Shown: positions 36,370-50,961 of the stretch, piece after piece
Layout of the letters: each line of letters opens with the position of its first letter
Numbering within the stretch: position 1 is the first letter of the stretch
NCBI GenBank assembly: GCA_963711495.1
Contig: CAVQEK010000007.1
Location: forward strand, 94,970 to 158,969
Length of the DNA: 64,000 nt
Source: an uncultured Cytophagales bacterium
GTDB lineage: Bacteria > Bacteroidota > Bacteroidia > Cytophagales > Cyclobacteriaceae
Direction: 5' to 3'
The notes under the pieces: model-generated
The model's database searches: none
Told to the model about the DNA's origin: nothing
The model's input: the letters and a program-made list of their open reading frames with translations, nothing else
Program-made: the position numbers and the translations under genes

Positions 36370-37564
36370 TTATTGAATGTAACTCTTAGTATTTCCCCTA
36401 TATTGATACAGCTTTACTCCTTCAACAACCCTGGATATTGCTCCACTTACAGAAGGTGAATCTGGGTTGAGACCCAAGGAAATCGATTTGAAAAACCCCA
36501 GTAGCTGGGCGGGCAAGACGCTGACGACCGACAATAGGTCTTCAGATATTCTGCCGTCTTCCGGACCTGCTAATTCTATCACGGTATCGAAGCCGTTTAA
36601 CTGTTCAGTTCGGTCAACCAACGCAACCCTGTAAAGCCCCCTTTCTCCATTGTCAATGTCTTCTACCAGATCAAACTCGTATTGTCGAACATATTCATCG
36701 TCGGAAAAAAGGAAAAATATCAACGTACTGCGATCGATGACAGCTTTGGGACCATGCCTGAACCCAAGATAGGAATCATGCTTGCAAATGATTCTGCCAT
36801 CAGTAAGTTCCTGCAACTTTAAATGTGACTCCCTTGCTGTACCAAGCATGGGGCCGGAACCGAGAAATATAGCTCTTGAAAATTCCAAGCTGTGCGATGC
36901 TAAATATTCGATCCCGGTAATCGTTGAGAATTTTCTCTCCATAGGAAGCAAGAAGATCAATTTGAGACTTAAGTATGTCAATATCATCAAGCCTCGATAT
37001 AAGGTATGCAGCAAGCAACATGGAAGTATAACTTCCGGTCATGGCCAATCCTTTGTCGTTCGATTCAGCCGGCAGGACAATTATCATGTCCTTTCCGGGG
37101 CGAACCTCTCCAACTATGTCGCCTGACTCATTACACGTAATTATCAGATGAAAAACACCCTGGCAGATTTCATTGGCCAATTTAATGGTAGCTACACTTT
37201 CCGGGCTATTTCCAGATCTTGCAAAGGAGATCATCAAGGTTGGCCTATCCTTATTGAGATAATTTTCCGGATGAGTAACGAGATTGGTTGTCGCTACTGC
37301 CCTGGACCGAGCCTTCGTATACCTTTGAAAAGGTCCCTCCAAAACCTCACCGATAAATGCTGAAGATCCTGCACCTGTCAATATGACCTCCAATCCCTGA
37401 TTTGAATATACTGCCCTCAAATACGCACTTATCTCCTTTCGTTTATCTTTAATCAGGGCAAAGATCTTTTTCCAAAGCTCCGGTTGCCCATCAATTTCCC
37501 TAGCAGTATTAAGCCCACCTAATTTCTCTAGTTCAGAGATTTTAAAGCCCAAAAACTCTTCCAT
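36370..37564 (-). pseudogene. agaS: AgaS-like double-SIS ketose/aldose isomerase-deaminase, split by a 1-nt frameshift
   Basis: Two overlapping ORFs in different frames (36800-37564 and 36370-37014) together align colinearly with E. coli AgaS. N-part: ILTGAGSSAFIGE...ISFARSGNSPESVATIKLAN...ITCNESG...PAESNDKGLAMTGSYTSM. C-part: AIFLGSGPMLGTARESHLKLQELT...GFRHGPKAV...SGAISRVVEGV. The frame switch lies between about 36880 and 36905 (...DRIFSIAQL / EFSRAIFLGSG). Confidence 0.75.
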
Positions 37565-37898
37565 ACTATTGTTTTGTTTCGATAACCAAAATTAGCATTA
37601 AATATTATACTTAGAAAAGGTTTTGTAAAAAAATAATGTTAATTATTTTTTATTTCATTATTATTTAAATTTAAAAAGAAAGATTCGATCTTGTTGGGCT
37701 AATTGGCTTATGTAGTTAACGTGTCAATTTGCAGGATTAAAAGATTACGCATGTTATCCGCTTAAAGAAGAGGCTTCCGTGGAAAATTATGTCCAAACTG
37801 GAATAAAAAAATAAAGCGACGCAGCATTTAAGCCTTTGCTCAAAGTTCTTATTTTATTCGCAATGCATTTTCAGAAAAAACCACTTGGCTGATGCCCA

Positions 37899-39050
37899 TT
37901 AATCTTTAAATATTCCAAACCATTTTTGTGCGTTTTTCAGGTAGATCTTATCAATTACTGCTTTGGGAAGTTTAAGCCCCTGAAATGATTCGTCGACCAG
38001 GTCACTGGTCATTTGATCATCGGAGACCAAATACTGCCAATCCCGGTACCATGTGTCATGCATTTGCTTCTGAAGTTGCTCTTTGGTTGATTGGCCGTAA
38101 TCCCCCAAATCAGTAGCATATAGCAGCCGGTCCTGATATTTTATGAAGAAGTCCCGCACTTTTTTACGGTCGTAGTGTGTTTGATAAAAAAGTTGCCCCA
38201 TTCTGGCGGCCATATCGACCACCATATTGGGAAATCTATCCAATCTTTTCGTCAGTTCGTCAACGTCCCATTCCAGGCTGCCCAAATGCGCCCCAATAAA
38301 GATCAGATCCGGATTTTTTTCCAACATATGGTCACGGGCGGCAATCTGATCTTCATATGACGGCAAATCGGGATGTTTGTACATGTGATACTCGGGGTGC
38401 TCATGGTAATACACGCTATCGTTGTTGGTAGTCATTTCATTCAATGGCAACCAACAGTTCTTGGGTTCGCCCAAATGGCCGATAACCGGAATCTTTCTTT
38501 CCGTCAGCATATGAAATATCGGGTCAAACCGGTCATCATCGATCCTGATCAGTTTCCCCTCCTTGTCTCTGAACACCATACCGATGTTCTTCCAGATCTT
38601 CACCGCGATAGCCCCGTCGTCAATGGCTGTATCCAGCCACGCCATGGTCTTCTCCTGCCAATCGGGATTGTCCCAGCCTTCCATGGAAAACGCTGTGGCA
38701 AACTGCACCATATCGGGGTGTCTTCTCATTTGCCCCACACAATAGCGGTGTTGTTGCAGAACGACTTCAAAGGAATTTTTGGAGTCCAGCGCTATCGTCA
38801 ATAGCCTGAAGTTGTCTTCCTGCGCGCGTGTCACAAAGAAATCCCTGTCCGTATGTATATGCACATGGACGTCAGATTTTGCCACTTTGCAGTAATCATC
38901 AAGCGAGTAATATTGTGATTTGTGTGCGCTACACCCCAAGAGGAATAAACCCACAATAAATGGCCACTTTTTCATTTGATTAAATTTATGTCTAAAGATC
39001 TTATGAGCTGCACCAATTGGTTCAGGAATGCGTAAACACCATCCCGGCAT
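37899..39050 (-). CDS. Amidohydrolase_2-family metal-dependent hydrolase (TIM barrel; lactonase/decarboxylase-type), probably a lipoprotein
   Basis: 383-aa ORF. The likely true start is MKKWPFIVGLFLLGCSA at 38975. It has the HxH motif SDVHVHIHTD, VIGHLGEP, FIGAHLG and a distal Asp in LLYATDLG. Confidence 0.6.
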   Translation of the reverse strand: MPGWCLRIPEPIGAAHKIFRHKFNQMKKWPFIVGLFLLGCSAHKSQYYSLDDYCKVAKSDVHVHIHTDRDFFVTRAQEDNFRLLTIALDSKNSFEVVLQQHRYCVGQMRRHPDMVQFATAFSMEGWDNPDWQEKTMAWLDTAIDDGAIAVKIWKNIGMVFRDKEGKLIRIDDDRFDPIFHMLTERKIPVIGHLGEPKNCWLPLNEMTTNNDSVYYHEHPEYHMYKHPDLPSYEDQIAARDHMLEKNPDLIFIGAHLGSLEWDVDELTKRLDRFPNMVVDMAARMGQLFYQTHYDRKKVRDFFIKYQDRLLYATDLGDYGQSTKEQLQKQMHDTWYRDWQYLVSDDQMTSDLVDESFQGLKLPKAVIDKIYLKNAQKWFGIFKD

Positions 39051-39228: not shown

Positions 39229-40284
39229 TCATTCGAGCCAATCTGTTAAATGTTCCCGCACAAAATCATCATCGTTCAGATCGGGATATTCCCGATATAC
39301 CCTGGATATTTCTTGCATTTGTCCTGGCGACAATTGCTCACTGGGGTTCAAACACCAGGTCCCTTCAAGCAACCCTTGCCTTCTGAGAATTTCATGAATG
39401 CCGGCAATACTCCCCTTAAAATTATTGGCCGAGTCAAAAATTGCCGAGTTTGCATCCGTGATCGCTGCGCCTTTTGTCAACAATTCCGGGGGAATTCCAC
39501 GGCCGGACCTTTTGACCTGTTTGATCTCCTCCAGTAGCGCCACCACCTTGCTTGTCCAGACAGCCCAATGGCCAAGCAAACCACCGACGATCGATTTTTC
39601 ACAGACCTTGCCATCGACGGTAAACCAGTAGGTTGTGAGCAGGTCCGCGACTATATTATCATCATTCCCGGTATAAAGGGCGATCTCATCACAACGAGGA
39701 GAACAGCAAACCGCCCGCACGACGTCCAGTGTGCGGTACCTGTCAAATGGTGCCATTTTAATGGCGTGGACATTGGGTACTTTGGCAAAATCCTTCCAAA
39801 AATCAAAGCTGAAAATTCTTCCACCAACTGCAGGCTGCAGATAAAACCCGAAGACCGGAATAATTTCTGCAATTTTTTCAATCCGCCCGATCAGATCGGT
39901 CTCTGACCAACTATTCAATCCGCCCATGCTCACGAGACCGAGATCGTATCCCAAACTGGCGGCAATTTTCGCTTCTTCAACAGCCTGGCCGGTCGGCCCG
40001 ACGATACCGGCGATCTTTAGAAACGGCCTGTTAAGGTTTGCTTTGGTTATTGTCTCGGCGGCCAATTCCAAGACGGGCTCATATAACCCATATTTTTTGT
40101 CCCTGATTTCAAATTGCGTGGTATGCACGCCAACAGCAACTCCGCCAGCACCACTTGCCATATAGTAGCGTGTGAGTGCCCGCTGTCGGTCTTTATCCAG
40201 TTTTCGGCTGGCATTCAGTGCCATCGGGTGCGCCGGGATCACCACGCCTTCATGAAGTAAATCTCTTATTTCTTGTGTCAACAT
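39229..40284 (-). CDS. DHDPS/N-acetylneuraminate-lyase-superfamily TIM-barrel protein (class I aldolase/dehydratase-like)
   Basis: 351-aa ORF. The N-terminal GVVIPAHPMALNASRKLDKDRQRALTRYYMASGAGGVAVGVHTTQFE follows the DapA-family layout, and there is a candidate Schiff-base Lys in VHAIKMAPFD. The usual TGE is replaced by TTQ, so the subfamily is uncertain. Confidence 0.5.
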   Translation of the reverse strand: MLTQEIRDLLHEGVVIPAHPMALNASRKLDKDRQRALTRYYMASGAGGVAVGVHTTQFEIRDKKYGLYEPVLELAAETITKANLNRPFLKIAGIVGPTGQAVEEAKIAASLGYDLGLVSMGGLNSWSETDLIGRIEKIAEIIPVFGFYLQPAVGGRIFSFDFWKDFAKVPNVHAIKMAPFDRYRTLDVVRAVCCSPRCDEIALYTGNDDNIVADLLTTYWFTVDGKVCEKSIVGGLLGHWAVWTSKVVALLEEIKQVKRSGRGIPPELLTKGAAITDANSAIFDSANNFKGSIAGIHEILRRQGLLEGTWCLNPSEQLSPGQMQEISRVYREYPDLNDDDFVREHLTDWLE

Positions 40285-40292
40285 GATCTGAT

Positions 40293-41309
40293 TTAATATG
40301 CTCCTTTTCTTTCCTGAAAATGCGTCGGTTTGTTTAAAACAGCACCCCCCTTAGTCAACCACAGTGCTACAATCTCGATCATTTTCTGTAAGGTAGTTTT
40401 TGGATACCCAAAGATCTTATGTGCCTGCGCAGCGTTGCTCAACAAGGCCGTCAGCTGTTCCTGACCTGTAAAACGAGGCTTTTTGCCCAGGTAAACGCCA
40501 AATTGGTTGGCAAGCCATCGGACCGATACCGTTTCCGGTCCGGTTACGTTGAGTATTTTTGGCGGTGAATCACAAAGCTTGATGGATCGCAGGGCATATT
40601 CATTGGCGTCGTCCTGCCAAATCACATTCACATGTCCGGTCGTCAGATCAATCTCCTTTTCATTGAGCACTGACATTGCAATTTCCAATAATATACCGTA
40701 CCGGAAGTCGATGGCATAATTAAGGCGAAAAATCAGTGCCAAAGTGCCATTTCTTTTTGAAAAATATTCAAAGACTCTTTCCCGTCCGAGGCACGATTGT
40801 GCATATTCACCTACCGGACCCGGTCTGTCATCTTCTGTCGCTCCACCTGAAATTAGCGGCATAAACGGATAGACGTTACCGGTAGAAAACACCACGATCC
40901 TGGAATCCTTGAATTTCCGGGCTATCCTACCCGGCAAATACGCATTCATTGCCCAGGTAAACGACTCATTGCCCTGAGTGCCAAACTTAGTACCGGCCAT
41001 ATATATAATATTCTTTACGTCAGGAAGCGCTGTAAGCTGGATCTCGTCAAGGAGATCTGCTTTGATGGTCTCAACACCGTTTGTATCCAAATTTCGCTGG
41101 GTAAGATCGTCAGAAAACCTCGATACCGCAATTACCCGGTTATTTTTTCCCGTGTTATCCACCGCCCTTTTTGCCAGTATGGCCAGGTCCGGCCCCATCT
41201 TGCCCCCTGCGCCCAGGATCATGATATCACCCTCAAGATGCTTCAAATCTCCGACAAGGTCTGCCGATGGCTGCAACATTTCTTCTTTCAATTTTGTAAG
41301 TGCTTCCAT
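40293..41309 (-). CDS. NAD(P)-dependent epimerase/dehydratase-family (extended SDR) protein
   Basis: 338-aa ORF with the Rossmann motif IMILGAGGKMGPDLA. The segment expected to hold YxxxK reads GEYAQSCLGRE, so the Lys position appears to be Cys by eye alignment. Confidence 0.65.
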   Translation of the reverse strand: MEALTKLKEEMLQPSADLVGDLKHLEGDIMILGAGGKMGPDLAILAKRAVDNTGKNNRVIAVSRFSDDLTQRNLDTNGVETIKADLLDEIQLTALPDVKNIIYMAGTKFGTQGNESFTWAMNAYLPGRIARKFKDSRIVVFSTGNVYPFMPLISGGATEDDRPGPVGEYAQSCLGRERVFEYFSKRNGTLALIFRLNYAIDFRYGILLEIAMSVLNEKEIDLTTGHVNVIWQDDANEYALRSIKLCDSPPKILNVTGPETVSVRWLANQFGVYLGKKPRFTGQEQLTALLSNAAQAHKIFGYPKTTLQKMIEIVALWLTKGGAVLNKPTHFQERKGAY

Positions 41310-41319: not shown

Positions 41320-42552
41320 TTATGTCAATAAAAAAGTGCGTACATTATTAATCGCAAGGAGGACCAATAAAAGCAGTCCTATTATTCCGGCGATATTCTT
41401 CCATTTATTGTTTTTCATGGCTCCCATGGTAGTGCCGTCATTGGCCACAAAAAACAATGCCACTCCAATGAGCGGGGCTATGATCACCGTCACCGCTTGT
41501 GCAAAAATGATCAATTCCAACGGCAAACGTCCGAATCTTACCGCTATGCCCGAACCGATAACCATTACCAGCATGATCATTAACCTCACCTTCTTATTTG
41601 CCAGTTCATATCCCATTTCAAATGCGTCAGAGAGCAGGGCACCTCCAATAGTTGCATTGCCGATAAGGGAAGAAAAAGAAGCACCAAAAAGGCCCATCAT
41701 AAATATCACGGTAGCAATATTCCCATATAATGGTTCCAGAGCAAGTCCCATATCCGCCGCGGAGTTAACTTTTATGCCCTTCGGGTGGAGCACGGCCGCA
41801 GCATTGATCAGAATGAATGAAGATATCGCACCCAGGATCAGAACGCCTGCCAGGCTTTCCCTCCTGCCAGCGTTAATTTGGTCTGACTTCCATCCTTTTT
41901 CCTTTACCAAATACGACTGGTAAAAGGCTCCTACTATGGAAAAGCTCGAGGCGATCAGGGCAATCGACAAAAGCTCCGACCCTTCCGGCAAGCTTGGGAC
42001 GAGCCCTTTGCCAACTGCAATCAGATCCGGCTTGGCCAATATCAAAGTAACCACAAAAGAAACAAGCATCACCCCGACAAGAGCAATCATAATCTTTTCA
42101 AGGATCCTGTAGAAAGACCTAAATACGAGAAGCAAGATCCCAATTAGGGTGAAAACAATGATCCACAATCTCATTTTTGTGTGAAAAAGTTCGGCAAAGG
42201 CAATGCTCGCTCCAATGGTATTCCCTGCCTGAAATGAAGCGGTAATTAAGAATATTCCGAGGCCCAACGCCACGGAAACAGGTCTCCCCCACTTTGCTCT
42301 TATGATCGTCAGCAGGGACCCGTTTGCCACAATTCCCACGCGCGCGCCCATCTCCACAAAAACAACCATAAAAAAAATGGCAACCACAATGACCCAAAAA
42401 AGATCGTAGCCAAATAATGCACCCATTCTCGAAGTGATCGTCAGGCTCCCCGGGCCAAATACAAGCGCTGCCGTGATCAGGCCTGGACCCAACACTGAAA
42501 GTTTCCTTTTCAATGATATTTTCCCAGTTCCGGTGTTGTCAATTTTTGCCAT
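41320..42552 (-). CDS. NRAMP-fold (MntH-like) transporter lacking the canonical metal-binding residues
   Basis: 410-aa ORF with about 11 TM. TM1 LGPGLITAALVFGPGSLTITSRMGALFGYDLFW aligns with MntH [29 protein letters not shown], so DPGN becomes GPGS. The TM6 region SSFSIVGAFYQSYLV replaces ATVMPHxxYLHS. Confidence 0.7.
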   Translation of the reverse strand: MAKIDNTGTGKISLKRKLSVLGPGLITAALVFGPGSLTITSRMGALFGYDLFWVIVVAIFFMVVFVEMGARVGIVANGSLLTIIRAKWGRPVSVALGLGIFLITASFQAGNTIGASIAFAELFHTKMRLWIIVFTLIGILLLVFRSFYRILEKIMIALVGVMLVSFVVTLILAKPDLIAVGKGLVPSLPEGSELLSIALIASSFSIVGAFYQSYLVKEKGWKSDQINAGRRESLAGVLILGAISSFILINAAAVLHPKGIKVNSAADMGLALEPLYGNIATVIFMMGLFGASFSSLIGNATIGGALLSDAFEMGYELANKKVRLMIMLVMVIGSGIAVRFGRLPLELIIFAQAVTVIIAPLIGVALFFVANDGTTMGAMKNNKWKNIAGIIGLLLLVLLAINNVRTFLLT

Positions 42553-42722
42553 TTTACTCGATCGATTCAGATTAAAGTTGCTAAATCCAACGATCTTTTA
42601 AAAATCACCGCCCCATCAACTATCATCACGCGATACATTAATCGATCATTATTGTTCATAAGATTTAAAATAAAGGTTTCGACAAGAAACATAAATATAA
42701 AATAATGAAATAAAACAAAAGT

Positions 42723-44066
42723 ATGTATATTGCAAAAGAAATAAAAGATTATTGTATGAAAGAAAAAGTAAAACAACAAAGACGGACTTTCATAAAGCAA
42801 ACTTCAGCAGTCGTCGGCGGAATACTTATCAGTCCACTGGGCATCCACCGCAGTGCCTATGCAGCCGGAAACGACGAAATAAAAATCGGCGTAGTGGGGT
42901 GTGGCGGCAGGGGTACCGGCGCAACAGCACAGGCACTTACCGCCAAACCGAATATTAAGCTGGTAGCCATGGCCGATGTTTTTGAGGGTCAAATAGAAAA
43001 AAGCTATAAAAATCTTCTTTCCATAGGAGAAATAAAAGACCAGGTGACTGTTTCCGATGAAAATAAATTTGTTGGCTTTGATGGTTACAAAAGTGTTATT
43101 GAAGCATCCGACGTGGTAATATTGGCCACCCCGCCAGGGTTTCGCCCCGAACATTTCGAGGCCGCCGTCAATGCCGGAAAGCATGTGTTCATGGAAAAGC
43201 CGCTCGCCTGCGACGCCCCGGGTTTAAGAAGAATATTAGCTTCAGGAGAACTGGCGACAAAAAAGAACCTGAAAGTAGTCGTCGGGCTGCAAAACCGGTA
43301 TGACCCCGTTTATATCGAAATGGTAAAACGCATTCAGGATGGGCAGATAGGTGATATCGTTTCCAGCACCTGCTATTATATGAAAGGAGCATATGATATT
43401 GTCCCGAGATCATCCGTCAACTCAGAACTTGCTTTCCAGATCAAAAACTGGCACTTCTTCAACTGGTTATGGGGTGGCGCGCCAGCAGGCCTGCAAATCC
43501 ACAACACCGATATTGTACATTGGGCAAAAGGAGCATACCCGGTACAGGCCCAGGGTATGGGGGGAAGAGCGGTACTCGACGGCCCGGATACCGGAGAAGT
43601 GTTTGATCATTTTTATATAGAATATACTTATCCCGATGGCACAAAACTGCACAGTCAGATCCGAATAATGAATAATACCTGGACGAAGAATGGTGCATTC
43701 TTTTGCGGCACCAAAGGAACGGCGAATGAACGCGAAGGTATTGCCGACCTGAGCGGACATGAAATATGGCGTTACCGGGACAGGGATCGCCCAGACCCCT
43801 ATCAGATCGAACATGATAAGCTGTTCGACGCCATCGTAAACGATATCCCAATAAATGACACCGAATACGGCGCCAAGAGTACCATGGCGGCAATTTTGGG
43901 GCGCATGGCATGTCATTCAGGCCAGTTTGTCACTTGGGAAGAGGCATTCCATTCGGATCTAAAACTTGTTCCCGATAATATGGATTGGAATACCAAACCG
44001 CCTATCTTGCCAGATGAACACCGTATTTATCCGGTCTCTCAACCCGGCGTAACTAAAGTGTATTGA
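42723..44066 (+). CDS. Tat-exported Gfo/Idh/MocA-family oxidoreductase (glycoside/sugar dehydrogenase type)
   Basis: 447-aa ORF. The likely start is MKEKVKQQRRTFIKQ at 42756. The twin-arginine motif QRRTFIK is followed by a hydrophobic stretch and AYAA, and the Rossmann motif reads IGVVGCGGRGTG. Confidence 0.85.
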   Translation: MYIAKEIKDYCMKEKVKQQRRTFIKQTSAVVGGILISPLGIHRSAYAAGNDEIKIGVVGCGGRGTGATAQALTAKPNIKLVAMADVFEGQIEKSYKNLLSIGEIKDQVTVSDENKFVGFDGYKSVIEASDVVILATPPGFRPEHFEAAVNAGKHVFMEKPLACDAPGLRRILASGELATKKNLKVVVGLQNRYDPVYIEMVKRIQDGQIGDIVSSTCYYMKGAYDIVPRSSVNSELAFQIKNWHFFNWLWGGAPAGLQIHNTDIVHWAKGAYPVQAQGMGGRAVLDGPDTGEVFDHFYIEYTYPDGTKLHSQIRIMNNTWTKNGAFFCGTKGTANEREGIADLSGHEIWRYRDRDRPDPYQIEHDKLFDAIVNDIPINDTEYGAKSTMAAILGRMACHSGQFVTWEEAFHSDLKLVPDNMDWNTKPPILPDEHRIYPVSQPGVTKVY

Positions 44067-44107
44067 CCAAATTGAAGTGGTAACGTCCGCATCAAACAAA
44101 AACAGAT

Positions 44108-46288
44108 ATGATTGAGAACAGGTACTTAAAATCGTCGGGCGTCACTGCTCTGCTCACTTTTTTTATCCTGACATTTGCCGCCATTTCTCAATCCGGAGCC
44201 ACTGCACTTTATCAGCATGGGCTATATGTGGTCCCTTACCCACGACAGGTGGTTATTGAAGGGGAAAATTTCACCATAGACCATGATGTGGTCATTGTGA
44301 TCGATCAGGGTGCATCTTCCGACGATCAATTTGCCGCTGAGGAGCTTTCCAGAGACTTACGCTCGGAATACGGTATCAATGCAACCGTGGACGCAAAAAT
44401 TTCTCCGGGATGCATTGTACTGACACGCAAAGATGCCGACAAGAAAATCGGTGAGCAGGGTTATCAGCTTTTGAGCGCTCCCGGTCAATTAATAATCAAG
44501 GCCAATGGCGCTTCCGGATTGTTTTACGGCACGCAAACACTCCTCCAACTGATAAAAAAAGAGGAAAAAGGATATTTTGTCCTCGGCATGGAGATCACCG
44601 ACTGGCCGGATGTAAAAGAGCGTGCCATGCATTACGATACAAAACATCATCAGGATAAAGAATCCTACGTAAAGCATTTCATCCGTGATCTGGCGCGATA
44701 CAAGGTCAATATGCTGGTTTGGGAATGGGAAGACAAACTGGCATATCCCAGTCATCCCGAGATCGGAGCCCCGGGAGCATTTACCGTGGAACAAATGAAG
44801 GAGTTTACGCGGTATGCGCGAAAATACCACATACAGCTTGTTCCCCTGGTGCAAGGCCTCGGACATGTCAGTTTTATTCTAAAATGGCCCCAATATGCTC
44901 ATTTAAGGGAAGTTGCGTCTTCCAACTGGGAATTCTGTCCGCTTAAAGATGGCTCCTACGACCTGCTTTTTGACCTGTGGGAAGATGCCATCAAGGCCAC
45001 GCCCGGTTCAAACTATATCCATATAGGAAGTGACGAAACCTTTGAACTGGCGTCGTGTGATGCCTGCAAGGCTAAGGCCGACCAGATCGGCACCAGTGGC
45101 TTATATCATTTATTCGTCAGCAAAGCAGCCAAACACCTGAAAGCACTGGACAGAGAGGTGATGGTATGGGAAAGGCCGATGGGCTGGAAAATGAGTTCTT
45201 CACCGGCTGTAGGTATAAAACCGGAAAGCGGGCTGATGCTCACGGAAAGTTACGGGTATGAAGAACCTGATTTTCACTATGCGAAAGAAGCAAAGGCATT
45301 GGGATACAAGGTGTTTGCCTACGATCCAAATCCCGGGATCGAACAGTTGTTTTTGCCATATTTTTACAGAGAAAAGAACGACCAGAAAATAATGGGGAGC
45401 CTTGAAAATTCCTACCAATTCGTATCTTCTGCTACAATATCAGGCGTATTTGACGGTGTGATCAATACCTCCTGGGATGACGCAGGACTGAACAATCAGG
45501 TTTGGATGCTGAGCTTTGTCACGTCAGCAGCTTTTTCCTGGAACGGGCGCAAACCGGACCTTGATGAGTTTACAGACTCTTTTTTCAAAAGCTACTACGG
45601 TCCGAACTCCATGAACATGAAAGAGCTGTTTTACTTGTTGAATGAGGGGGCTTATTATTATATGTCAACTTTTGAAAGGAATGTCTGGCATTATGGCGAC
45701 GTGGGAAAGACCCATTTGCCTGACTTGCCGCGAGGCGATGCCATGGAATATGACCCGTACTGGAACCGGGAATACCACGACATACTAGAAAAGTCGGAAG
45801 AGATCGACGACAAGATGCGGCGTGCTTCCAGCATCATAGCAGACAACCTCAAATCCGGCGTCAAAAATTCTTATGATTTCGAAGTGTTTGAAACCATTGT
45901 GGATATGATCAGGCATACCGCACATACCTACAGCGATCTATCGGAATTGGAGCATCTGATCACAAAAGCCCATCAAAATCATTTCGTTGATCATGCGACG
46001 GCGTATGATTATCTCAACCAGGCAGCCGACCTCATTGAGCACAGCCTTGTGCGAAGAAAACAAGTCTTCGACAATTTGGTGACCGTATGGGAAAAAACAC
46101 GCCTGCCGAAAGGGATGTCCACTGATGAAAAGCAGTACTTTTTCCAGCAGGACCGGGCACGGCATTTTGCCAATCGCCGCCCCGACATGACCTATCTGAT
46201 CTACGACGAGCAACTGCTCGATCTTGAAGGTTACCTGGAAAAACTCAGGGATTATATGAAATATTATCAAAAAACTTACCTGGATTAA
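44108..46288 (+). CDS. GH20-like glycoside hydrolase (beta-N-acetylhexosaminidase-family architecture) with a helical C-terminal domain
   Basis: 726-aa ORF with a signal peptide. The GH20b-like N-domain reads LYVVPYPRQVVIEGENFTI. The catalytic barrel pattern reads ITDWPDVKERAMHYDTKHH...YKVNMLVWEWEDKL...QLVPLVQGLGH, with an IHIGSDE acid pair. Confidence 0.6.
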   Translation: MIENRYLKSSGVTALLTFFILTFAAISQSGATALYQHGLYVVPYPRQVVIEGENFTIDHDVVIVIDQGASSDDQFAAEELSRDLRSEYGINATVDAKISPGCIVLTRKDADKKIGEQGYQLLSAPGQLIIKANGASGLFYGTQTLLQLIKKEEKGYFVLGMEITDWPDVKERAMHYDTKHHQDKESYVKHFIRDLARYKVNMLVWEWEDKLAYPSHPEIGAPGAFTVEQMKEFTRYARKYHIQLVPLVQGLGHVSFILKWPQYAHLREVASSNWEFCPLKDGSYDLLFDLWEDAIKATPGSNYIHIGSDETFELASCDACKAKADQIGTSGLYHLFVSKAAKHLKALDREVMVWERPMGWKMSSSPAVGIKPESGLMLTESYGYEEPDFHYAKEAKALGYKVFAYDPNPGIEQLFLPYFYREKNDQKIMGSLENSYQFVSSATISGVFDGVINTSWDDAGLNNQVWMLSFVTSAAFSWNGRKPDLDEFTDSFFKSYYGPNSMNMKELFYLLNEGAYYYMSTFERNVWHYGDVGKTHLPDLPRGDAMEYDPYWNREYHDILEKSEEIDDKMRRASSIIADNLKSGVKNSYDFEVFETIVDMIRHTAHTYSDLSELEHLITKAHQNHFVDHATAYDYLNQAADLIEHSLVRRKQVFDNLVTVWEKTRLPKGMSTDEKQYFFQQDRARHFANRRPDMTYLIYDEQLLDLEGYLEKLRDYMKYYQKTYLD

Positions 46289-46299
46289 TCAAAACACAA

Positions 46300-48525
46300 A
46301 TGGGTTCAACTGGTGCAGGAAGAATATTGCGAAAAAACATTTCAATAGTGATTTTGATGCACCTGCTGATCTTTGGATCATCATGCAAACACAATGTAAC
46401 CGAGAATAAGTCGCAATCAGTTGTCAAGGCCGCTTTTCATTGGGAATATGCAAGCCCTGAAAGTCAGGGGATGTCGTCGGCAAAACTTGACCATATGGCA
46501 AACGTGCTAGCCGGCAAAGGCACGAAAAAACTGTTAATTATAAAGAACGACAAAATTATCTATCAGTGGTTTGCCAACAGATGGGAAGACTCGGCAAGGA
46601 CACACTATACCGCATCCCTGGCAAAGGCTATTGTTGCCGGAATGTCATTATTGGCGGCACTGGACAATGGTTATATTCATCTCGACGAACCGGCCTGCAA
46701 TTACATCCCTTCCTGGAAAACAGACAACAAAAGATCGAAGATCACCATCAGGCAACTGGCCACACATACCTCAGGACTCAGCGATGCGGAGGGCAGTCCC
46801 GAGGAATTGATCGCCATCGAATCCAAGGGGCTTCACCGGCATTTTGACCTTCCAGGCTGGAGGGGGCAATTCTGGAGAAAGGAGCCCGATCCATTTTCCG
46901 TTGCAAGGGACAGCACGCCGGTAGTCTTCACACCAGGAGAAAAATATGCCTACAGTAATCCGGGTATCGCCATGCTCACTTATGCCGTAACTGCGTCTCT
47001 GAAAAATTCAAAATACAACGATATACGAAGCTATTTAAAAGAGCAGATCTACGCTCCCATTGGGTTAGAAGAAAAAACATACACGATGGGATACGGGAAA
47101 ACCTACGAGGTTGACGGATTAAAATTAGTGCCGAGTTGGGGTGGCGGCAACTACACCGCCAAAGCCATCGCCCGGATCGGCCTGCTGATGCTTCACAAAG
47201 GTAATTGGCAGGGGAAACAGCTCATCGATTCAGCGACGATCGCAAAAGTAACCGAATATGGGGGCACCGCGTTACCATCCGCGATTTCGGAAAGTGCCGA
47301 ACCGGAGGACGATACCCGAACCGCCAACAATCCCATACCGATCACAACTGCCGGATGGTATACCAACCGGGACGGCGTATGGAACAATGTGCCGCGGGAT
47401 GCCTTTGCCGGTGGTGGTGCCGGTAACCAGCATTTGTTGGTCATTCCAAGCTTAAACATGGTCGTAGTGCGTATGGGCGACAATCTGTTTGATGCATCAA
47501 ATCATGAGGGATTTTGGTTTGGTGCGGAACAATACCTTTTCAATCCCATCATGGAAGCCATTGATGAACCGCCATATCCCAAGAGCAATATTTCTGCGGA
47601 GTTTGCCCCTAATGCCACCATCATACGCCTGGCCAGCGGCAGTGATAACTGGCCTGTGACCTGGGGAGATGATGACAACTTGTATACAGCCTACGGCGAT
47701 GGCAAGGGCTTTCCGCCCCACACTGACATCAAACTCAGTCTCGGCCTGGCCAAAATAACAGGAGACCCTCCTGCGCTTCAAGGAATCAATATCCGCACGC
47801 ACTCCGGGGAAAGGGTCGGAAAGGGAAAAAATGGGGTAAAGGCAAGCGGTATGCTGATGGTGGATGGGGTGCTGTATATGCTCGTTCGAAATAGCAACAA
47901 TGCCCGCCTGATGTGGTCGGACGATCACGGAAAGACCTGGGAACAGTCCGGTTGGAAATTCGACGTAAGTTTTGGATGCCCTACTTTTCTCAACTACGGG
48001 AAAAACTATCGGGGTTCTACGGACAATTATGTGTATATCTATTCTCAAGATGATGCCAGTGCGTATAAAAACAGCGACCAGTTTGTATTGGCAAGGGTTT
48101 TGAAAAACCAGATAAAGAACTGGCGTAAATATGAATATTTCGCTGGTTTTGCTGTTGATCATGAACCAAAATGGTCTGAAGATATTCGAAAGAGGGTACC
48201 GGTATTTTCCAATCCCGCAAAATGTTACCGGTCCGGGATCACTTATAACCAGGGATTGAAAAAATACCTCTGGTGCCAGACAATACAATTATCTTCATTC
48301 GAAGAACACTCCGATGCCAGATTCAAAGGCGGGGTAGGAATATTTGAATCTTTGACGCCCTGGGGCCCCTGGAAAACAATCTTTTACACCAGAGACTGGG
48401 ATGTCGGGCCGGGTGAAACGTCATCCATACCCGTCAAATGGATGAGTGATGATGGAAAAATATGTTATTTGCTGTTTTCAGGAGATGATGCTTTTTCAAT
48501 TCGAAAAGTGGTTTTCAAATTATGA
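46300..48525 (+). CDS. Fusion of a serine hydrolase (beta-lactamase / family VIII esterase fold) with a C-terminal Asp-box beta-propeller-like domain
   Basis: 741-aa ORF with a lipobox (IFGSSC). It has an SxxK motif (YTASLAKAIV) and YxN (YAYSNPG). The C-terminal half has WPVTWGDDDNLYTAYGDGKGF and a BNR/Asp-box, WSDDHGKTW. Confidence 0.65.
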   Translation: MGSTGAGRILRKNISIVILMHLLIFGSSCKHNVTENKSQSVVKAAFHWEYASPESQGMSSAKLDHMANVLAGKGTKKLLIIKNDKIIYQWFANRWEDSARTHYTASLAKAIVAGMSLLAALDNGYIHLDEPACNYIPSWKTDNKRSKITIRQLATHTSGLSDAEGSPEELIAIESKGLHRHFDLPGWRGQFWRKEPDPFSVARDSTPVVFTPGEKYAYSNPGIAMLTYAVTASLKNSKYNDIRSYLKEQIYAPIGLEEKTYTMGYGKTYEVDGLKLVPSWGGGNYTAKAIARIGLLMLHKGNWQGKQLIDSATIAKVTEYGGTALPSAISESAEPEDDTRTANNPIPITTAGWYTNRDGVWNNVPRDAFAGGGAGNQHLLVIPSLNMVVVRMGDNLFDASNHEGFWFGAEQYLFNPIMEAIDEPPYPKSNISAEFAPNATIIRLASGSDNWPVTWGDDDNLYTAYGDGKGFPPHTDIKLSLGLAKITGDPPALQGINIRTHSGERVGKGKNGVKASGMLMVDGVLYMLVRNSNNARLMWSDDHGKTWEQSGWKFDVSFGCPTFLNYGKNYRGSTDNYVYIYSQDDASAYKNSDQFVLARVLKNQIKNWRKYEYFAGFAVDHEPKWSEDIRKRVPVFSNPAKCYRSGITYNQGLKKYLWCQTIQLSSFEEHSDARFKGGVGIFESLTPWGPWKTIFYTRDWDVGPGETSSIPVKWMSDDGKICYLLFSGDDAFSIRKVVFKL

Positions 48526-48717
48526 CTTCGGTAAAGTGGTGAATACGATTATTTTAATTCCGCGAAACAACAAATGCAAAAAAACTTTCAAGGAACCGGT
48601 ACTGCATCTAGTTTCTGTAAAACAGCGGATAAACGATGATTGTGATGATAATCGCCTCAGGATTATATTTGAACTTGAAAGTAATTAGACATTAAACAAA
48701 AAAGTTACTCAAGAAAA

Positions 48718-49644
48718 GTGGAGTTCCCGAAGATATTAGCGGTTTGCCCGAATCCATCGATCGATATCCTGGCCACTATTGCCCAACTGGTGCCCGGAAA
48801 AGTGAATCGCATAATTGACGAAAAACACTTTCCTGGCGGGAAAGGCATCCATGTGGCACTGGCAGTTGCTGAAATTGCCGGCAGTGGCGACGTTCTCGGT
48901 ATTTGGGGTGGGCCCTCGGGAAGCTGGTTAAAAAAAGAATGCGAACAAAGAAATGTAATGTGCAGCGGCCCACTGGTAGCGGAATGGAACAGAAGCTGCT
49001 ATACTTTTAACTCCGAGCATCAGGGAGTCCATGATACTGAATTATTGAGTCCGGGACCAAATCTGTCCGAGTCTGAATTGAAGGGCTTTTACCTACAATT
49101 TGAAAAAATTTCGGCAGGATTTGAGATCATATGCTTGAGCGGGTCGTGGCCGCATGGCGCTCCATCCGGTGCGTATCATCAATTAATTAATTTAGCCAGC
49201 AACAAAAAAGTATTTTTGGACTGCTCCGGCGCGCTGTTACAGGAGGGCCTTAAAGCGCATCCGTATGGCATACATGTCAATTTAAATGAAGGCATTGCGC
49301 TTACAGGTGAGGACGACCCAGTCGCGATTGCAAGGGTGCTCGGGGAACAGTGCACCTGCGCCGCGATAACCGCCGGAAAGGACGGACTTTTCATGGCTTT
49401 CCAAGGTCATATCCTTCACGCCAATGTACACATCGATAAAGTAGTTGGCTCTTCGGTGGGCAGTGGTGATTGCCTGGTAGCAGGATTGGCCATTGCCACG
49501 TCAAGAGGTTATTCCCTGGAGGATACGGCCAAATTTGCCGTTGCGTGCGGAGCAGCCAATTGCCTGAATCCCGATCTGGGCATGCTGAAACGTGCAGATG
49601 TTGAAAAATTATTTGGTGAAGCCACAACAAGGACAATACAATAA
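48718..49644 (+). CDS. PfkB-family hexose-phosphate kinase (1-phosphofructokinase / tagatose-6-phosphate kinase type)
   Basis: 308-aa ORF with a GTG start. The N-terminal ILAVCPNPSIDI...VNRI...FPGGKGIHVA is typical of FruK/LacC, and the C-terminus has VGSGDCLVAGLA and GAANC. Confidence 0.75.
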   Translation: MEFPKILAVCPNPSIDILATIAQLVPGKVNRIIDEKHFPGGKGIHVALAVAEIAGSGDVLGIWGGPSGSWLKKECEQRNVMCSGPLVAEWNRSCYTFNSEHQGVHDTELLSPGPNLSESELKGFYLQFEKISAGFEIICLSGSWPHGAPSGAYHQLINLASNKKVFLDCSGALLQEGLKAHPYGIHVNLNEGIALTGEDDPVAIARVLGEQCTCAAITAGKDGLFMAFQGHILHANVHIDKVVGSSVGSGDCLVAGLAIATSRGYSLEDTAKFAVACGAANCLNPDLGMLKRADVEKLFGEATTRTIQ

Positions 49645-49722: not shown

Positions 49723-49753
49723 TGTGTAATAGCTCCGACTTGATCTGACAGTT
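49723..49753. repeat. IS481 terminal inverted repeat (end proximal to the transposase stop)
   Basis: Matches the reverse complement of 51015-51043 apart from a 2-nt indel and a few mismatches. The inner 18 nt, CGACTTGATCTGACAGTT, match 17 of 18. Confidence 0.75.
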
Positions 49754-50961
49754 CAAGGTGTTGGTTTTGAGTTTTCTTTAGGTATACCACTCCCAAAATG
49801 GTGATAAGCAAGGGGCAAATAAAGCCCCTCGCCATTTCGGTCGGCAAGGTTATTCCTGGCAGGTTGGTCTCCACCAGAGCCTGCTTCCGCTTCACCTTGC
49901 GGTAATAAAGGTACGAAATTTTCATTCTGCCGATCCAACAATTTTTCTTTCGCCAGATGTAAGGATTCTTCCCAGGTTTGTATTGGTGTTTTCCCAAAGC
50001 AGTATTTGCCTGAATGGGGCCGGTCATGGTTGTATTGATCAATCCAAACATCCAGATCCTGCTGAAGTTCTTCAATATTGTGGTAGATCTTCTTTCTAAA
50101 AGCCACCGCATAGAATTCGTCTTGTATGGTACGATGGAAGCGCTCACAAATGCCGTTGGTTTGAGGACTTTTGGCTTTTGTCTTACTATGGTCTATATCC
50201 TCAATGGCCAAATAAAGCTGATATTCATGATGCTCCCTGGAGCCACAATATTCAGTGCCTCGATCAGTTAAAATTCGAAGTAACGGGATGTCATATTTTT
50301 CATAGAAAGGGATCACCCGATCGTTCAGTATATCTGCCGCTACTAATGCATTTTTCCTGTCATACAACTTAACATGGGCTGTTTTGGCATATGTATCGAT
50401 AAATGTCTGCTGATAAATCCTGCCAACGCCCTTAATGGTTCCAACATAATAGGTGTCCTGGGCACCCAGGTAGCCCGGATGAAGTGTCTCTATCTCGCCC
50501 TGGGCCCGCTTCTCTTCCTTAGCCTTTTCCATGGCGGTAATTTGAGATTCAGTCAGTATCAATCCTTCTTGGGCAACTTTAGCCTCCAGAGCTTTGAGTC
50601 GCTTTCTGAAGGTCTCCAGATCATGTCGCAGCCAAACACAGCGCACACCACAGGGAGATATGAATACCCCTTCTTTCTTAAGTTCATTGGAGGCTCTTAA
50701 TTGGCCATATGCAGGATATTCATATGCAATGGATACGACACGTTCTTCTATGGCTGGCTCAATGCGATTTTTGTGATTCGGTTGGCGGCGGCTAAGTTCA
50801 GCCAATGCCATCTCTCCGCCTTGATCGTACAACTCTTTGTAGCGGTAAAAGCTATCTCGACTATATCCAAATATTTTACAGGCTTGGGATACATTGCCTA
50901 ATTGTTCGGCTAAGTTGAGTAGTCCTAACTTAGTTTTGATTACTTTTGTCTCTGTATTCAT
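49753..50961 (-). CDS. IS481-family DDE transposase (rve integrase core)
   Basis: 402-aa ORF. The N-terminal HTH reads LGNVSQACKIFGYSRDSFYRYKELY. The rve core has WLGAQDTYYVG-type D, ILTDRGTEYCG and SPQTNGICERFHRTIQDEFY. The stop codon lies inside the left inverted repeat. Confidence 0.9.
   Translation of the reverse strand: MNTETKVIKTKLGLLNLAEQLGNVSQACKIFGYSRDSFYRYKELYDQGGEMALAELSRRQPNHKNRIEPAIEERVVSIAYEYPAYGQLRASNELKKEGVFISPCGVRCVWLRHDLETFRKRLKALEAKVAQEGLILTESQITAMEKAKEEKRAQGEIETLHPGYLGAQDTYYVGTIKGVGRIYQQTFIDTYAKTAHVKLYDRKNALVAADILNDRVIPFYEKYDIPLLRILTDRGTEYCGSREHHEYQLYLAIEDIDHSKTKAKSPQTNGICERFHRTIQDEFYAVAFRKKIYHNIEELQQDLDVWIDQYNHDRPHSGKYCFGKTPIQTWEESLHLAKEKLLDRQNENFVPLLPQGEAEAGSGGDQPARNNLADRNGEGLYLPLAYHHFGSGIPKENSKPTP

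What the first reader, a model, noticed from the sequence alone, without database searches (positions are those of the whole stretch)
41320..42552. NRAMP-fold transporter with both metal-site motifs replaced, leading a sugar-acid-like catabolic operon
The N-terminus aligns residue for residue with MntH, but DPGN in TM1 reads GPGS (VFGPGSLTI). The segment aligning with the TM6 A-x-x-M-P-H motif reads SSFSIV. The Asp, Asn and Met that bind Mn/Fe in canonical NRAMPs are therefore all absent, so divalent-metal transport is unlikely. The gene is first in an operon with an SDR, a DHDPS-like protein and an amidohydrolase_2. This suggests it imports an organic substrate for that pathway, which would be an uncharacterised specificity for this fold.
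Basis: partly seen in the sequence, partly recalled or inferred. Interest (0 to 1): 0.7.

Follow-up and report, generated by a model that had tools for sequence, protein, structure and literature searches.

The report
Nramp-fold transporter lacking its metal site
This gene encodes a membrane transporter built like the Nramp manganese/iron importers but with every metal-binding residue replaced, and because it almost always sits beside the same two sugar-acid-type enzymes it most likely imports a sugar-derived acid, although databases label it a metal transporter.

Summary
The 410-aa ORF (41320-42552, minus strand) is a confident Nramp/LeuT-fold protein: Pfam PF01566 at 250 bits, AF2 pLDDT 87, TM-score 0.85-0.87 to DraNramp and EleNRMT. 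The metal ligands are all replaced: D56→G33, N59→S36, A227→S202, M230→S205, H232→V207. The proton-pathway acids are gone too.

The replacements are conserved across a large clade (GPGS / FQxGN / (S/T)(S/T)FS..AFYQxY). This clade is distinct from Slc11, from the Mg2+ transporters (NRMT), and from the "orphan outgroup", which appears to hold the putative 5-oxoproline carrier PxpT/YcsG.

In about 69 of 82 loci examined (80 from the genome scan) (Bacteroidota and Bacillota) the gene sits directly beside an atypical SDR-fold protein (YxxxC) and a divergent DHDPS/N-acetylneuraminate-lyase-like protein. The amidohydrolase_2 is not part of this module.

Surrounding genes are glycan-utilisation and periplasmic sugar-oxidation genes. 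Where the Nramp-like gene is absent, the same enzyme pair sits beside ABC or TctABC transporters.

Best reading (about 0.6): an ion-coupled importer of a sugar-derived carboxylate. The exact substrate is unresolved and nothing is experimentally tested. Non-metal Nramp relatives are already known, so this is a new variant of a known kind.

The parts
41320..42552 (-). Nramp-fold (LeuT-fold, 11 TM) transporter, 410 aa, of the 'GPGS / FQAGN / SSFSIVGAFYQSY' clade
   Evidence: ORF. Pfam PF01566 at 249.6 bits. AF2 model pLDDT 87. Foldseek TM-score 0.85-0.87 to DraNramp and EleNRMT.
42445..42456 (-). Codons for G33-P34-G35-S36 in the unwound part of TM1, in place of the canonical D-P-G-N
   Evidence: Alignments. 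Helix break at residues 32-33 in the model. G33 and P34 invariant, G35 and S36 at least 90% conserved.
41932..41949 (-). Codons for S202-S203-F204-S205-I206-V207 in the unwound part of TM6, in place of the canonical A-x-x-M-P-H
   Evidence: Alignments. Helix break at residues 204-205. F204 invariant.
40293..41309 (-). Atypical extended-SDR-fold NAD(P)-binding protein, 338 aa. It starts 10 bp after the transporter's stop codon. It has a GxxGxxG motif, S142 and Y169, but Cys173 where the catalytic Lys would be (YAQSC).
   Evidence: Pfam Epimerase E 5e-4, just below the gathering score. Profile search of PDB: TerB oxidoreductase and GalE at E 2e-6. Conservation. Adjacent to the transporter in 70 of 82 loci.
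39229..40284 (-). Divergent DHDPS / N-acetylneuraminate-lyase-family class I aldolase-like protein, 351 aa. It starts 8 bp after the SDR-like stop codon. The catalytic Tyr (FYLQP) and Schiff-base Lys (AIKxAPF) are conserved.
   Evidence: No Pfam hit for the single sequence. Profile search of PDB: NanA at E 5e-8. AF2 pLDDT 89.7. Foldseek TM 0.7/0.85 to DHDPS, HOGA and NAL. Adjacent in 69 of 82 loci.
42553..42722 (.). AT-rich 170-bp divergent intergenic region between the transporter operon and the plus-strand Gfo/Idh/MocA-GH20 genes. Presumed promoter and operator region. No riboswitch.
   Evidence: Sequence. No Rfam match at E<=1.
37899..39050 (-). Amidohydro_2 protein with a lipoprotein signal (MKKWPFIVGLFLLGC, probable start near 38975). 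A neighbour, not part of the conserved module.
   Evidence: Pfam. Sequence. Found near the transporter in only 7 of 82 loci.
36370..37597 (-). AgaS-family SIS sugar isomerase/deaminase gene, broken by one frameshift near 36887/36888. Local amino-sugar context, not conserved with the transporter.
   Evidence: NCBIfam TIGR02815 matches split over two ORFs. tblastn with the Flexithrix orthologue shows a shift from frame -2 to frame -3.
42723..49644 (+). Divergent glycan-processing genes. Gfo/Idh/MocA oxidoreductase with a twin-arginine signal (42723-44066). GH20 hexosaminidase-like (44108-46288). Beta-lactamase-fold plus DUF4185 protein (46300-48525). PfkB sugar kinase (48718-49644).
   Evidence: Pfam and NCBIfam. 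The same Gfo-GH20 divergent arrangement occurs in Flexithrix dorotheae.

Best explanation
The protein is a secondary-active (H+- or Na+-coupled) inner-membrane importer. It uses the Nramp/LeuT scaffold, but its central site has been rebuilt into an uncharged, Ser/Thr/Gln/Asn-lined pocket between the unwound TM1 (G33-P34-G35-S36) and TM6 (S202-S203-F204-S205). TM3 (Q108, N111), TM8 (S294, S295, N299) and TM10 (Q352) contribute to that pocket.

It imports an anionic, sugar-derived carboxylate. Glycan-degrading and sugar-oxidising enzymes make this compound outside the cytoplasm. The transporter delivers it to the two co-transcribed enzymes: an NAD(P)-dependent SDR-fold oxidoreductase and a pyruvate-type class I (Schiff-base) lyase of the DHDPS/NanA family. 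Together these split it into pyruvate plus a small aldehyde or sugar.

Candidate substrates, in my order of preference:
1. A 2-keto-3-deoxy acid derived from unsaturated or oxidised uronates (DEH/DKI, KDG, 5-keto-4-deoxyglucarate).
2. An N-acetylhexosaminate such as GlcNAc1A.
3. A sialic or ulosonic acid.

Shown: the fold, the loss of all metal ligands, and the conserved gene linkage. Inferred: direction of transport, coupling ion, substrate class and substrate identity.
For: 1. Binding site.
- All Slc11 metal ligands and proton-relay residues are replaced by G, S, V, Q, N or F.
- The core helices TM1, 3, 6, 8 and 10 carry no conserved acidic residue (read directly from the sequence against the model).
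- The replacing residues are invariant or nearly so across 22 sequences down to 34% identity.

2. Gene linkage.
- The order Nramp-like then SDR-like then DHDPS-like, on the same strand with gaps of about 10-100 bp, occurs in about 69 of 82 loci. These are from Cytophagales, Sphingobacteriales, Chitinophagales, Flavobacteriales, Balneolales and Psychrobacillus.
- Brevibacillus has the permuted order SDR-DHDPSL-Nramp-like.

3. Transporter slot.
- The SDR-like/DHDPS-like pair also occurs without the Nramp-like gene. In those cases it sits next to other importers: TctABC, which carries carboxylates (Nitratireductor; Radiobacillus); CUT1 sugar ABC systems; and an Opp-type ABC system.
- The Nramp-like protein therefore occupies the permease slot of a catabolic module.

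4. Recurrent neighbours are carbohydrate-catabolic.
- SusC/SusD with ECF sigma factor and FecR.
- BNR_4, the fold of the PL24/25/42 uronate lyases (PMC13193363, PMC8377490).
- Heparinase II/III-like, GH88-like and GH20 genes.
- Exported PQQ-type GSDH-cytochrome c, directly upstream in 15 loci.
- TAT-signal Gfo/Idh/MocA, MR_MLE, M20D aminoacylase-like, NagA/NagB, ROK, and LacI/GntR regulators.

5. More distant members of the same GPGS/GPGN clade show similar contexts.
- In haloarchaea they sit with heparinase II/III, sulfatase, BNR-4, Gfo/Idh/MocA, IclR and FAH genes.
- In Neorhizobium one sits with LacI and a different DHDPS-family gene.
- In a planctomycete one is in an overlapping MR_MLE operon.

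6. No Mn, Mg or other riboswitch lies upstream.

7. Precedents.
- PxpT/YcsG, Nramp-family proteins required for 5-oxoproline use (PMC13274462).
- The SSS (LeuT-fold) carrier OngIT for GlcNAc1A, in a GH20 plus aminoacylase plus deaminase pathway that ends in KDG (PMC9537276).
Against: - There is no transport, binding, expression or mutant-fitness data for any member of this clade. My literature searches found none.
- Neither partner enzyme is characterised. The SDR-like protein has Cys in place of the catalytic Lys, so it may not be a conventional dehydrogenase.
- The DHDPS-like protein is equidistant from DHDPS, HOGA and NanA.
- The contexts point to several different substrates and do not converge on one.
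- About 13 of 82 close orthologues lack the enzyme pair nearby.
- Some planctomycete members of the wider clade are stand-alone genes.
- B. subtilis YcsG, an Nramp relative in an organic-acid operon, has been reported to raise Mn2+ import (PMC10448178). Gene context alone can therefore mislead.
- Q352, the counterpart of the metal-contacting Q378 of DraNramp, is retained.
Confidence: 0.6

Rival explanations
1. It is still a metal or other inorganic-cation transporter, as annotated. It would bind a different ion (Mg2+, Ca2+, Mn2+ bound through water, or a monovalent cation) at a remodelled site.
For: - It is a member of PF01566 and passes the NCBIfam Nramp_1 cut-off.
- NRMT and NRAT show that the fold can switch metal specificity (PMC4072509).
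- YcsG was reported to raise Mn2+ import (PMC10448178).
- Q352, the counterpart of DraNramp Q378, is kept.
- An MgtC-family gene lies divergently upstream in 2 loci.
Against: - Every known metal-transporting branch keeps the TM1 Asp: DPGN in Slc11 and 'NDAGG' in EleNRMT. This clade has Gly there and no compensating acid anywhere in the core helices.
- There is no metal riboswitch upstream.
- Linkage is to catabolic enzymes that need no imported metal.
- The same enzyme pair elsewhere sits with sugar or carboxylate transporters.
Confidence: 0.1
2. It imports a neutral or cationic amino sugar (GalNAc/GalN or GlcNAc/GlcN) for the adjacent Aga/Nag-type genes, rather than a carboxylate.
For: - The window and Flexithrix loci carry AgaS-like, PfkB, GH20, PIG-L, DeoR and class II aldolase genes.
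- NagA, NagB and ROK genes are near the enzyme pair in several loci.
- No dedicated amino-sugar permease was seen among the annotated neighbours of the window locus.
Against: - Aga/Nag genes accompany the transporter in only a minority of loci: AgaS in 4 of 82 and Glucosamine_iso in 9 of 80. The SDR-like/DHDPS-like pair accompanies it in about 69 of 82.
- A Schiff-base pyruvate lyase needs a 2-oxo-acid substrate.
- TctABC replaces the transporter in two loci.
Confidence: 0.12
3. It is a PxpT/YcsG-type carrier for 5-oxoproline or another lactam or amino acid.
For: - PxpT/YcsG are Nramp-family proteins genetically required for 5-oxoproline use (PMC13274462).
- YcsG is a structural neighbour (rank 16).
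- The APC superfamily is rich in amino-acid carriers.
Against: - Homologues with the orphan-outgroup signature (GPGT / AYEAGN / TTVVPYNLFLHAS) form a different branch at about 30% identity. One of them, in Haloferax, sits next to oxoprolinase genes.
- I did not test directly whether YcsG or PxpT themselves carry that signature.
- No pxpABC or hydantoinase genes were found near any of the 80 orthologues.
Confidence: 0.04

Closest known systems
Slc11/Nramp/MntH proton-coupled Mn2+/Fe2+ importers (DraNramp, ScaDMT, EcoDMT, B. fragilis MntH 10ky)
   Same: Same Pfam family (PF01566). Same 11-TM LeuT fold, TM-score about 0.85, with unwound TM1 and TM6 at the same positions. About 24% identity. Q378 is retained as Q352.
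   Different: D56, N59, A227, M230 and H232 are replaced by G, S, S, S and V. The proton-relay residues E124, D131, E134 and H237 are replaced by F, Q, N and Q. It fails the MntH model cut-off (128 vs 430 bits). Its gene context is carbohydrate-catabolic, not metal-homeostatic.
NRMT, Nramp-related Mg2+ transporters (EleNRMT 7QIA; C. acetobutylicum NrmT)
   Same: An outgroup of Slc11 within PF01566 with an altered binding site. Best structural match, TMq 0.87.
   Different: NRMT keeps the TM1 Asp ('NDAGG') and has 'TTIAPW' in TM6. Many NRMT genes are controlled by M-box riboswitches and pair with MgtE-like fragments (PMC4072509). None of this applies here.
Cellier's 'orphan outgroup' of PF01566, which I think (but did not test) includes PxpT (C. 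glutamicum cg1142) and YcsG/MntG (B. subtilis)
   Same: Lacks DPGN/MPH, with Gly in place of the TM1 Asp (GPGT). Linked to catabolism of an organic acid. It is the precedent for a non-metal substrate in this family (PMC9606685, PMC10606218, PMC13274462).
   Different: A separate branch at about 30% identity. Its signature is AYEAGN in TM3 (Glu kept) and TTVVPYNLFLHAS in TM6 (Pro kept), against SFQAGN and SSFSIVGAFYQSY here. In Haloferax volcanii a member sits next to hydantoinase/oxoprolinase genes, not SDR-like/DHDPS-like genes. I did not check the sequences of YcsG or PxpT themselves.
LeuT-fold sugar-acid symporters of the SSS family (SiaT for sialic acid; OngIT for GlcNAc1A) and KDG permease KdgT. 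These are functional analogues only.
   Same: They fill the inner-membrane permease slot in loci that contain GH20, lyases, deacylases and keto-deoxy-acid enzymes. SiaT and OngIT share the LeuT architecture (PMC9537276; SiaT and KdgT from general knowledge).
   Different: No detectable sequence relationship beyond the superfamily fold. Their substrates are experimentally established, whereas the substrate here is not.

Membership tests
PF01566 / LeuT-fold APC superfamily | Significant match to the family profile, and an 11-TM inverted-repeat fold with unwound TM1 and TM6 | tested here: met
   249.6 bits against a cut-off of 29.8. AF2 pLDDT 87 with helix breaks at residues 32-33 and 204-205. 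TM-score 0.82-0.87 to Nramp and NRMT structures.
Slc11 (Nramp/MntH) metal importers | TM1 D-P-G-N motif (Asp and Asn metal ligands) | tested here: not met
   G-P-G-S at the aligned positions. Conserved across the clade.
Slc11 (Nramp/MntH) metal importers | TM6 A-x-x-M-P-H motif (Ala carbonyl, Met thioether, His) | tested here: not met
   S-S-F-S-I-V at the aligned positions.
Slc11 (Nramp/MntH) metal importers | TM3 and TM6b proton-relay residues (DraNramp E124, D131, E134, H237) | tested here: not met
   F101, Q108, N111 and Q212.
Slc11 (Nramp/MntH) metal importers | Score above the curated MntH model cut-off (NCBIfam NF001923) | tested here: not met
   128.4 bits against a cut-off of 430.
Slc11 (Nramp/MntH) metal importers | Proton-coupled Mn2+/Fe2+ uptake | not testable with these tools
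   Needs uptake or complementation assays.
NRMT (Mg2+) | TM1 Asp retained (D-x-G-G) and TM6 T-x-x-A-P-W-type site | tested here: not met
   EleNRMT has 'NDAGG' and 'TTIAPW'. The query has 'FGPGS' and 'SSFSIV'.
NRMT (Mg2+) | Frequent M-box riboswitch or MgtE-fragment neighbour | tested here: not met
   No Rfam hit upstream in the window or in 7 orthologous loci. No MgtE fragment was found among neighbours.
Orphan outgroup (to which I think PxpT/YcsG belong) | Signature GPGT / (A)Y(E)xGN with invariant Gly residues in TM3 / TTVVPY in TM6 | tested here: not met
   The query has GPGS / SFQAGN / SSFSIV and branches apart in the NJ tree. The tree is approximate and has no support values.
Orphan outgroup (to which I think PxpT/YcsG belong) | Adjacency to 5-oxoprolinase or hydantoinase genes | tested here: not met
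   Seen for the Haloferax volcanii pHV4 homologue. Absent from all 80 orthologous loci.
DHDPS/NanA class I aldolase family (the neighbour at 39229-40284) | TIM-barrel fold with the Schiff-base Lys and the catalytic Tyr | tested here: met
   Profile hit to NanA at E 5e-8, with K176 on the Schiff-base Lys and Y148 on Y137. Foldseek TM 0.7/0.85. The GxTGE motif is changed to HTTQF.
Classical/extended SDR (the neighbour at 40293-41309) | GxxGxxG NAD site and a catalytic S...YxxxK triad | tested here: inconclusive
   GAGGKMG, S142 and Y169 are present, but Lys is replaced by Cys173, which is at least 90% conserved. The Pfam Epimerase score of 19.9 is below the cut-off of 20.9.

The most novel reading that the evidence does not exclude
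The GPGS/FQxGN/TTFS..AFYQxY branch of PF01566 is a previously unrecognised family of sugar-acid importers. It contains thousands of proteins in Bacteroidota, Bacillota, Planctomycetota, Proteobacteria and haloarchaea, all annotated as Mn/Fe transporters. Candidate substrates are keto-deoxy, ulosonic or hexosaminic acids. In this reading the family serves as the inner-membrane gate of an equally uncharacterised two-enzyme (atypical SDR plus NanA-like lyase) non-phosphorylative pathway. That pathway would be fed by periplasmic PQQ- or Gfo-type sugar oxidation and by polysaccharide lyases in polysaccharide-utilisation loci.
Probability: 0.5. Interest if true: 0.7.

Novelty: new variant of a known kind. 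Interest (0 to 1): 0.6.

Why it matters
If correct, a large and widespread set of genes now named 'Nramp family divalent metal transporter' or 'manganese transport protein' is mis-annotated. That would distort metal-homeostasis and carbon-flux predictions for soil, marine and PUL-rich bacteria.

It would add a new transporter family for acidic sugars and a second non-metal specificity for the Nramp scaffold. It would be a clean natural experiment on how a metal site in a LeuT-fold carrier is converted into an organic-solute site.

It also flags an uncharacterised, highly conserved enzyme pair (atypical SDR plus NanA-like lyase; the homologue search hit its 8000-candidate ceiling, so at least that many). 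This pair probably defines an unknown step in glycan catabolism.

The claim is directly testable in culturable hosts.

Tried and rejected
1. Offset-alignment explanation. I checked whether Asp, Asn and Met are present but shifted. I rejected this. HMMER, MAFFT and the AF2 helix breaks all agree on the register.

2. PDB entry 10ky/10le. I suspected it was a solved outgroup member. It is a canonical DPGN/MPH MntH from Bacteroides fragilis.

3. Amidohydrolase_2, AgaS, GH20 and PfkB as parts of a conserved operon. I rejected this. They are local to the window and Flexithrix lineage.

4. Literature on function. I searched for Nramp together with outgroup, RB-TnSeq, carbon source, PUL, DHDPS, Pedobacter, Echinicola and GapMind. 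Nothing was found on this clade. One apparent hit (Salmonella xynABC) mentioned Nramp only as a mouse genotype.

5. Discriminating the lyase's substrate. A profile search of PDB and Foldseek put it equidistant from DHDPS, HOGA and NanA. This was uninformative.

I repeated it with database homologues.

7. Riboswitch search upstream was negative.

8. Wider-clade contexts in Planctomycetota were only partly informative. Gimesia and Thalassoroseus genes are stand-alone.

9. Pocket geometry and docking could not be done, because model coordinates are not exposed to the script tool.
Full report
**The object.** The finding's coordinates hold a 410-aa ORF on the minus strand, 41320-42552.
- It matches Pfam PF01566 (Nramp) at 249.6 bits over residues 41-382.
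- It passes the broad NCBIfam Nramp_1 model (101 bits, cut-off 50). It reaches only 128 bits against the MntH model, whose cut-off is 430.
- An AlphaFold2 model built on 22 diverse homologues is confident: pLDDT 87.2, pTM 0.86. It shows 11 TM helices with breaks at F32-G33 and F204-S205. These are the unwound centres of TM1 and TM6 that define LeuT-fold carriers.
- Foldseek places it with DraNramp (TMq 0.82-0.85) and EleNRMT (0.87). Other APC-superfamily carriers follow far behind.

**The observation.** The phmmer alignment to DraNramp is gap-free through TM1.
- It puts FGPGSLTIT on MDPGNFATN, giving D56→G33 and N59→S36.
- It puts ASSFSIVGAFYQ on GATVMPHVIYLH, giving A227→S202, M230→S205, P231→I206, H232→V207 and H237→Q212.
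- The TM3 proton-relay residues E124, D131 and E134 become F101, Q108 and N111.
- A MAFFT alignment of 100 sequences gives the same register, and the predicted helix breaks coincide with it.
- Read directly from the sequence against the model, TM1, TM3, TM6, TM8 and TM10 carry no acidic residue in their membrane-embedded parts.

**Not an accident.**
- The protein has more than 2000 relatives at E<=1e-10 in the large protein collection. All that carry a name are called Nramp, manganese or divalent-metal transporters.
- The exhaustive search of 50%-identity representatives found 1241 at E<=1e-10.
- The substituted motifs are conserved in 75 orthologues.
- G33, P34, Q108, F204, Q212, S294, N299 and Q352 are invariant in 22 sequences down to 34% identity.
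- Q352 is the counterpart of DraNramp Q378, so one former metal-contacting residue is retained.

**Placement in the family.** An approximate neighbour-joining tree, with motif labels, separates four groups:
- canonical DPGN/MPH proteins (DraNramp, B. fragilis MntH 10ky);
- EleNRMT (NDAGG / TTIAPW);
- a GPGT / AYEAGN / TTVVPYNLFLHAS clade;
- a large GPGS (some GPGN) / FQxGN / (S/T)(S/T)FS..AFYQxY clade that contains the query.

Cellier describes PF01566 as Slc11 plus an 'orphan' outgroup plus NRMT. He characterises the orphan outgroup by Y..N in helix 3, several invariant glycines, and V/Y in helix 6 (PMC10606218, PMC9606685). That signature fits the GPGT/VPY clade, not the query's clade.

Shin et al. 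already called the outgroup a possible link between carriers of non-metal substrates and metal carriers (PMC4072509). So loss of the motifs is a known property of part of PF01566. The query's branch itself is, as far as I could find, not described.

**Precedent for an organic substrate.**
- C. glutamicum PxpT (cg1142) and B. subtilis YcsG are classed in TCDB 2.A.55 (NRAMP). They are genetically required for growth on 5-oxoproline (PMC13274462).
- A separate study instead reports YcsG as an Mn2+ importer, 'MntG' (PMC10448178). Function in these outgroups is therefore contested.
- A GPGT-type homologue on Haloferax volcanii pHV4 lies immediately upstream of hydantoinase/oxoprolinase A and B genes. 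This is consistent with that clade being the PxpT type. I did not check the YcsG or PxpT sequences directly.

**Gene linkage of the query's clade.** One scan of species-representative genomes returned 80 loci at 51-69% identity. They come from Cytophagales, Sphingobacteriales, Chitinophagales, Flavobacteriales, Balneolales and from Bacillota (Psychrobacillus, Brevibacillus, Paenibacillus).
- tblastn with the window's proteins finds the SDR-like gene in 70 of 82 loci and the DHDPS-like gene in 69 of 82 (these 82 are the 80 from the genome scan plus two fetched earlier that overlap two of them).
- These genes are on the same strand and directly downstream. In Brevibacillus the order is permuted to SDR-DHDPSL-Nramp-like.
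- The two enzymes are 55-75% identical to the window's.
- In the window the three genes are separated by 10 and 8 bp.
- By contrast the amidohydrolase_2 appears in 7 loci, AgaS in 4 and the window-type GH20 in 8.
- The window's amidohydrolase starts about 250 bp after the DHDPS-like stop codon and has a lipoprotein signal.

**The partner enzymes.**
- The 338-aa protein has a GxxGxxG NAD site, S142 and Y169, but a conserved Cys where the catalytic Lys should be (YAQSC). Its best solved relatives are TerB oxidoreductase and GalE at E about 2e-6.
- The 351-aa protein has no Pfam hit as a single sequence. As a profile it matches N-acetylneuraminate lyase (E 5e-8) and DHDPS, with the catalytic Tyr and the Schiff-base Lys conserved.
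- Its model (pLDDT 89.7) superposes equally well on DHDPS, HOGA and NanA.
- It belongs to a very large, tightly conserved family; the homologue search hit its 8000-candidate ceiling.

Both are uncharacterised subfamilies. A Schiff-base pyruvate lyase implies a 2-oxo-3-deoxy acid at some step.

**Wider context.** I clustered all ORFs of the 80 loci and annotated the clusters. Recurrent neighbours are:
- SusC/SusD with ECF sigma factor and FecR;
- BNR_4, the fold of PL24/PL25 ulvan lyases and the PL42 Rha-GlcA lyase (PMC13193363, PMC8377490);
- an exported PQQ-type glucose/sorbosone dehydrogenase fused to cytochrome c, directly upstream of the transporter in 15 loci;
- DUF5074, TAT-signal Gfo/Idh/MocA, GH20, GH88-like, MR_MLE, M20D aminoacylase-like, GDSL esterase, NagA/NagB-like genes and LacI.

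Individual loci add the following:
- A GH33-type sialidase (FRIP motif, Asp boxes) lies between the transporter and the SDR-like gene in one locus.
- Psychrobacillus has a heparinase II/III-like gene and a CUT1 ABC system upstream.
- In Bacillota, Actinomycetota and Alphaproteobacteria the SDR-like/DHDPS-like pair occurs without an Nramp-like gene. There it sits next to TctABC, CUT1 or Opp ABC importers. Its companions include Gfo/Idh/MocA, MR_MLE, ROK, M20, Fe-S serine-dehydratase-like, NagA/NagB and GH20 genes.
- More distant GPGS/GPGN-type transporters show similar company. In haloarchaea they sit with sulfatase, heparinase II/III, BNR-4, Gfo/Idh/MocA, IclR and FAH genes. In Neorhizobium one sits with LacI and a different DHDPS-family gene. 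In a planctomycete one is in an overlapping MR_MLE operon.
- Some planctomycete members are stand-alone and uninformative.
- No riboswitch precedes the gene in the window or in seven orthologous loci.

**Interpretation.** Three things are shown:
- an Nramp-fold carrier with no metal ligand or proton relay;
- a conserved polar, uncharged central site;
- tight and phylogenetically broad linkage to two catabolic-type enzymes, in a slot that other importers fill elsewhere.

From this I infer that it imports an organic, probably anionic, sugar-derived substrate made outside the cytoplasm by lyases, hydrolases and periplasmic dehydrogenases.

The contexts suggest three substrate classes:
- keto-deoxy acids from unsaturated or oxidised uronates;
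- N-acetylhexosaminates, by analogy with the Ong pathway, which combines GH20, an aminoacylase, a deaminase producing KDG, and the SSS carrier OngIT (PMC9537276);
- sialic or ulosonic acids.

I cannot choose between them. I give the general reading about 0.6, a residual metal or cation function about 0.1, an amino-sugar permease about 0.12 and a PxpT-like function about 0.04. The remainder is unassigned.

**Novelty and score.** The motif loss and the notion of non-metal Nramp relatives are known. The distinct GPGS clade, its conserved triad and its embedding in glycan-utilisation loci appear undescribed in the literature I could search. I classify it as a new variant of a known kind and give it an interest score of 0.6. 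It concerns a large, testable and probably mis-annotated family, but it rests on context only and the substrate is unresolved.

Noticed in passing
window 36370-37597 (-): The AgaS-family SIS gene is split by a single frameshift near 36887/36888, going from frame -2 to frame -3 relative to the intact Flexithrix orthologue. There is no homopolymer at the site. It is either a pseudogene or an assembly error.
   Followed up: partly
window 49753-50961 (-): An IS-type transposase (HTH plus rve integrase core) sits directly after the PfkB kinase gene, at the edge of the glycan locus.
   Followed up: no
window 40293-41309 (-) and its orthologues: The SDR-fold partner has a conserved Cys in place of the catalytic Lys (YAQSC instead of YxxxK), next to an invariant R176. 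This is an unusual active site for an extended SDR.
   Followed up: partly
L024 13307-14701 and L034 13307-14701 (Pedobacter): The enolase-superfamily (MR_MLE) protein downstream of the triad carries a twin-arginine signal (MDRRQFLK). This suggests an exported member of a family that is normally cytoplasmic.
   Followed up: no
L064 11228-12430; also L015: A GH33-type sialidase (YRIP motif and four Asp boxes) is inserted between the Nramp-like gene and the SDR-like gene.
   Followed up: partly
L056 (Pseudozobellia) and L097 (planctomycete MAG, 8001-9224 and 15028-16374): Two Nramp-like paralogues occur in one locus. In L097 the second follows an AP_endonuc_2/OYE fusion protein and precedes a DUF993 gene.
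   Followed up: no
L012 8314-8454 (-) (Paenibacillus sp. J2TS4): A c-di-AMP riboswitch (92 bits) lies upstream of a CAP-domain gene next to, but not controlling, the Nramp-like orthologue.
   Followed up: no
window 6405-15851 (-): A cluster of two sulfatases, an FGE-sulfatase-domain protein, GH127-like and DUF4838 genes lies next to a SusC/SusD pair. The genome appears specialised for sulfated glycans.
   Followed up: no
L011 and L015, divergently upstream of the Nramp-like gene: An MgtC plus DUF4010 membrane protein lies beside the transporter in two loci. This is the only metal-flavoured neighbour I saw.
   Followed up: no
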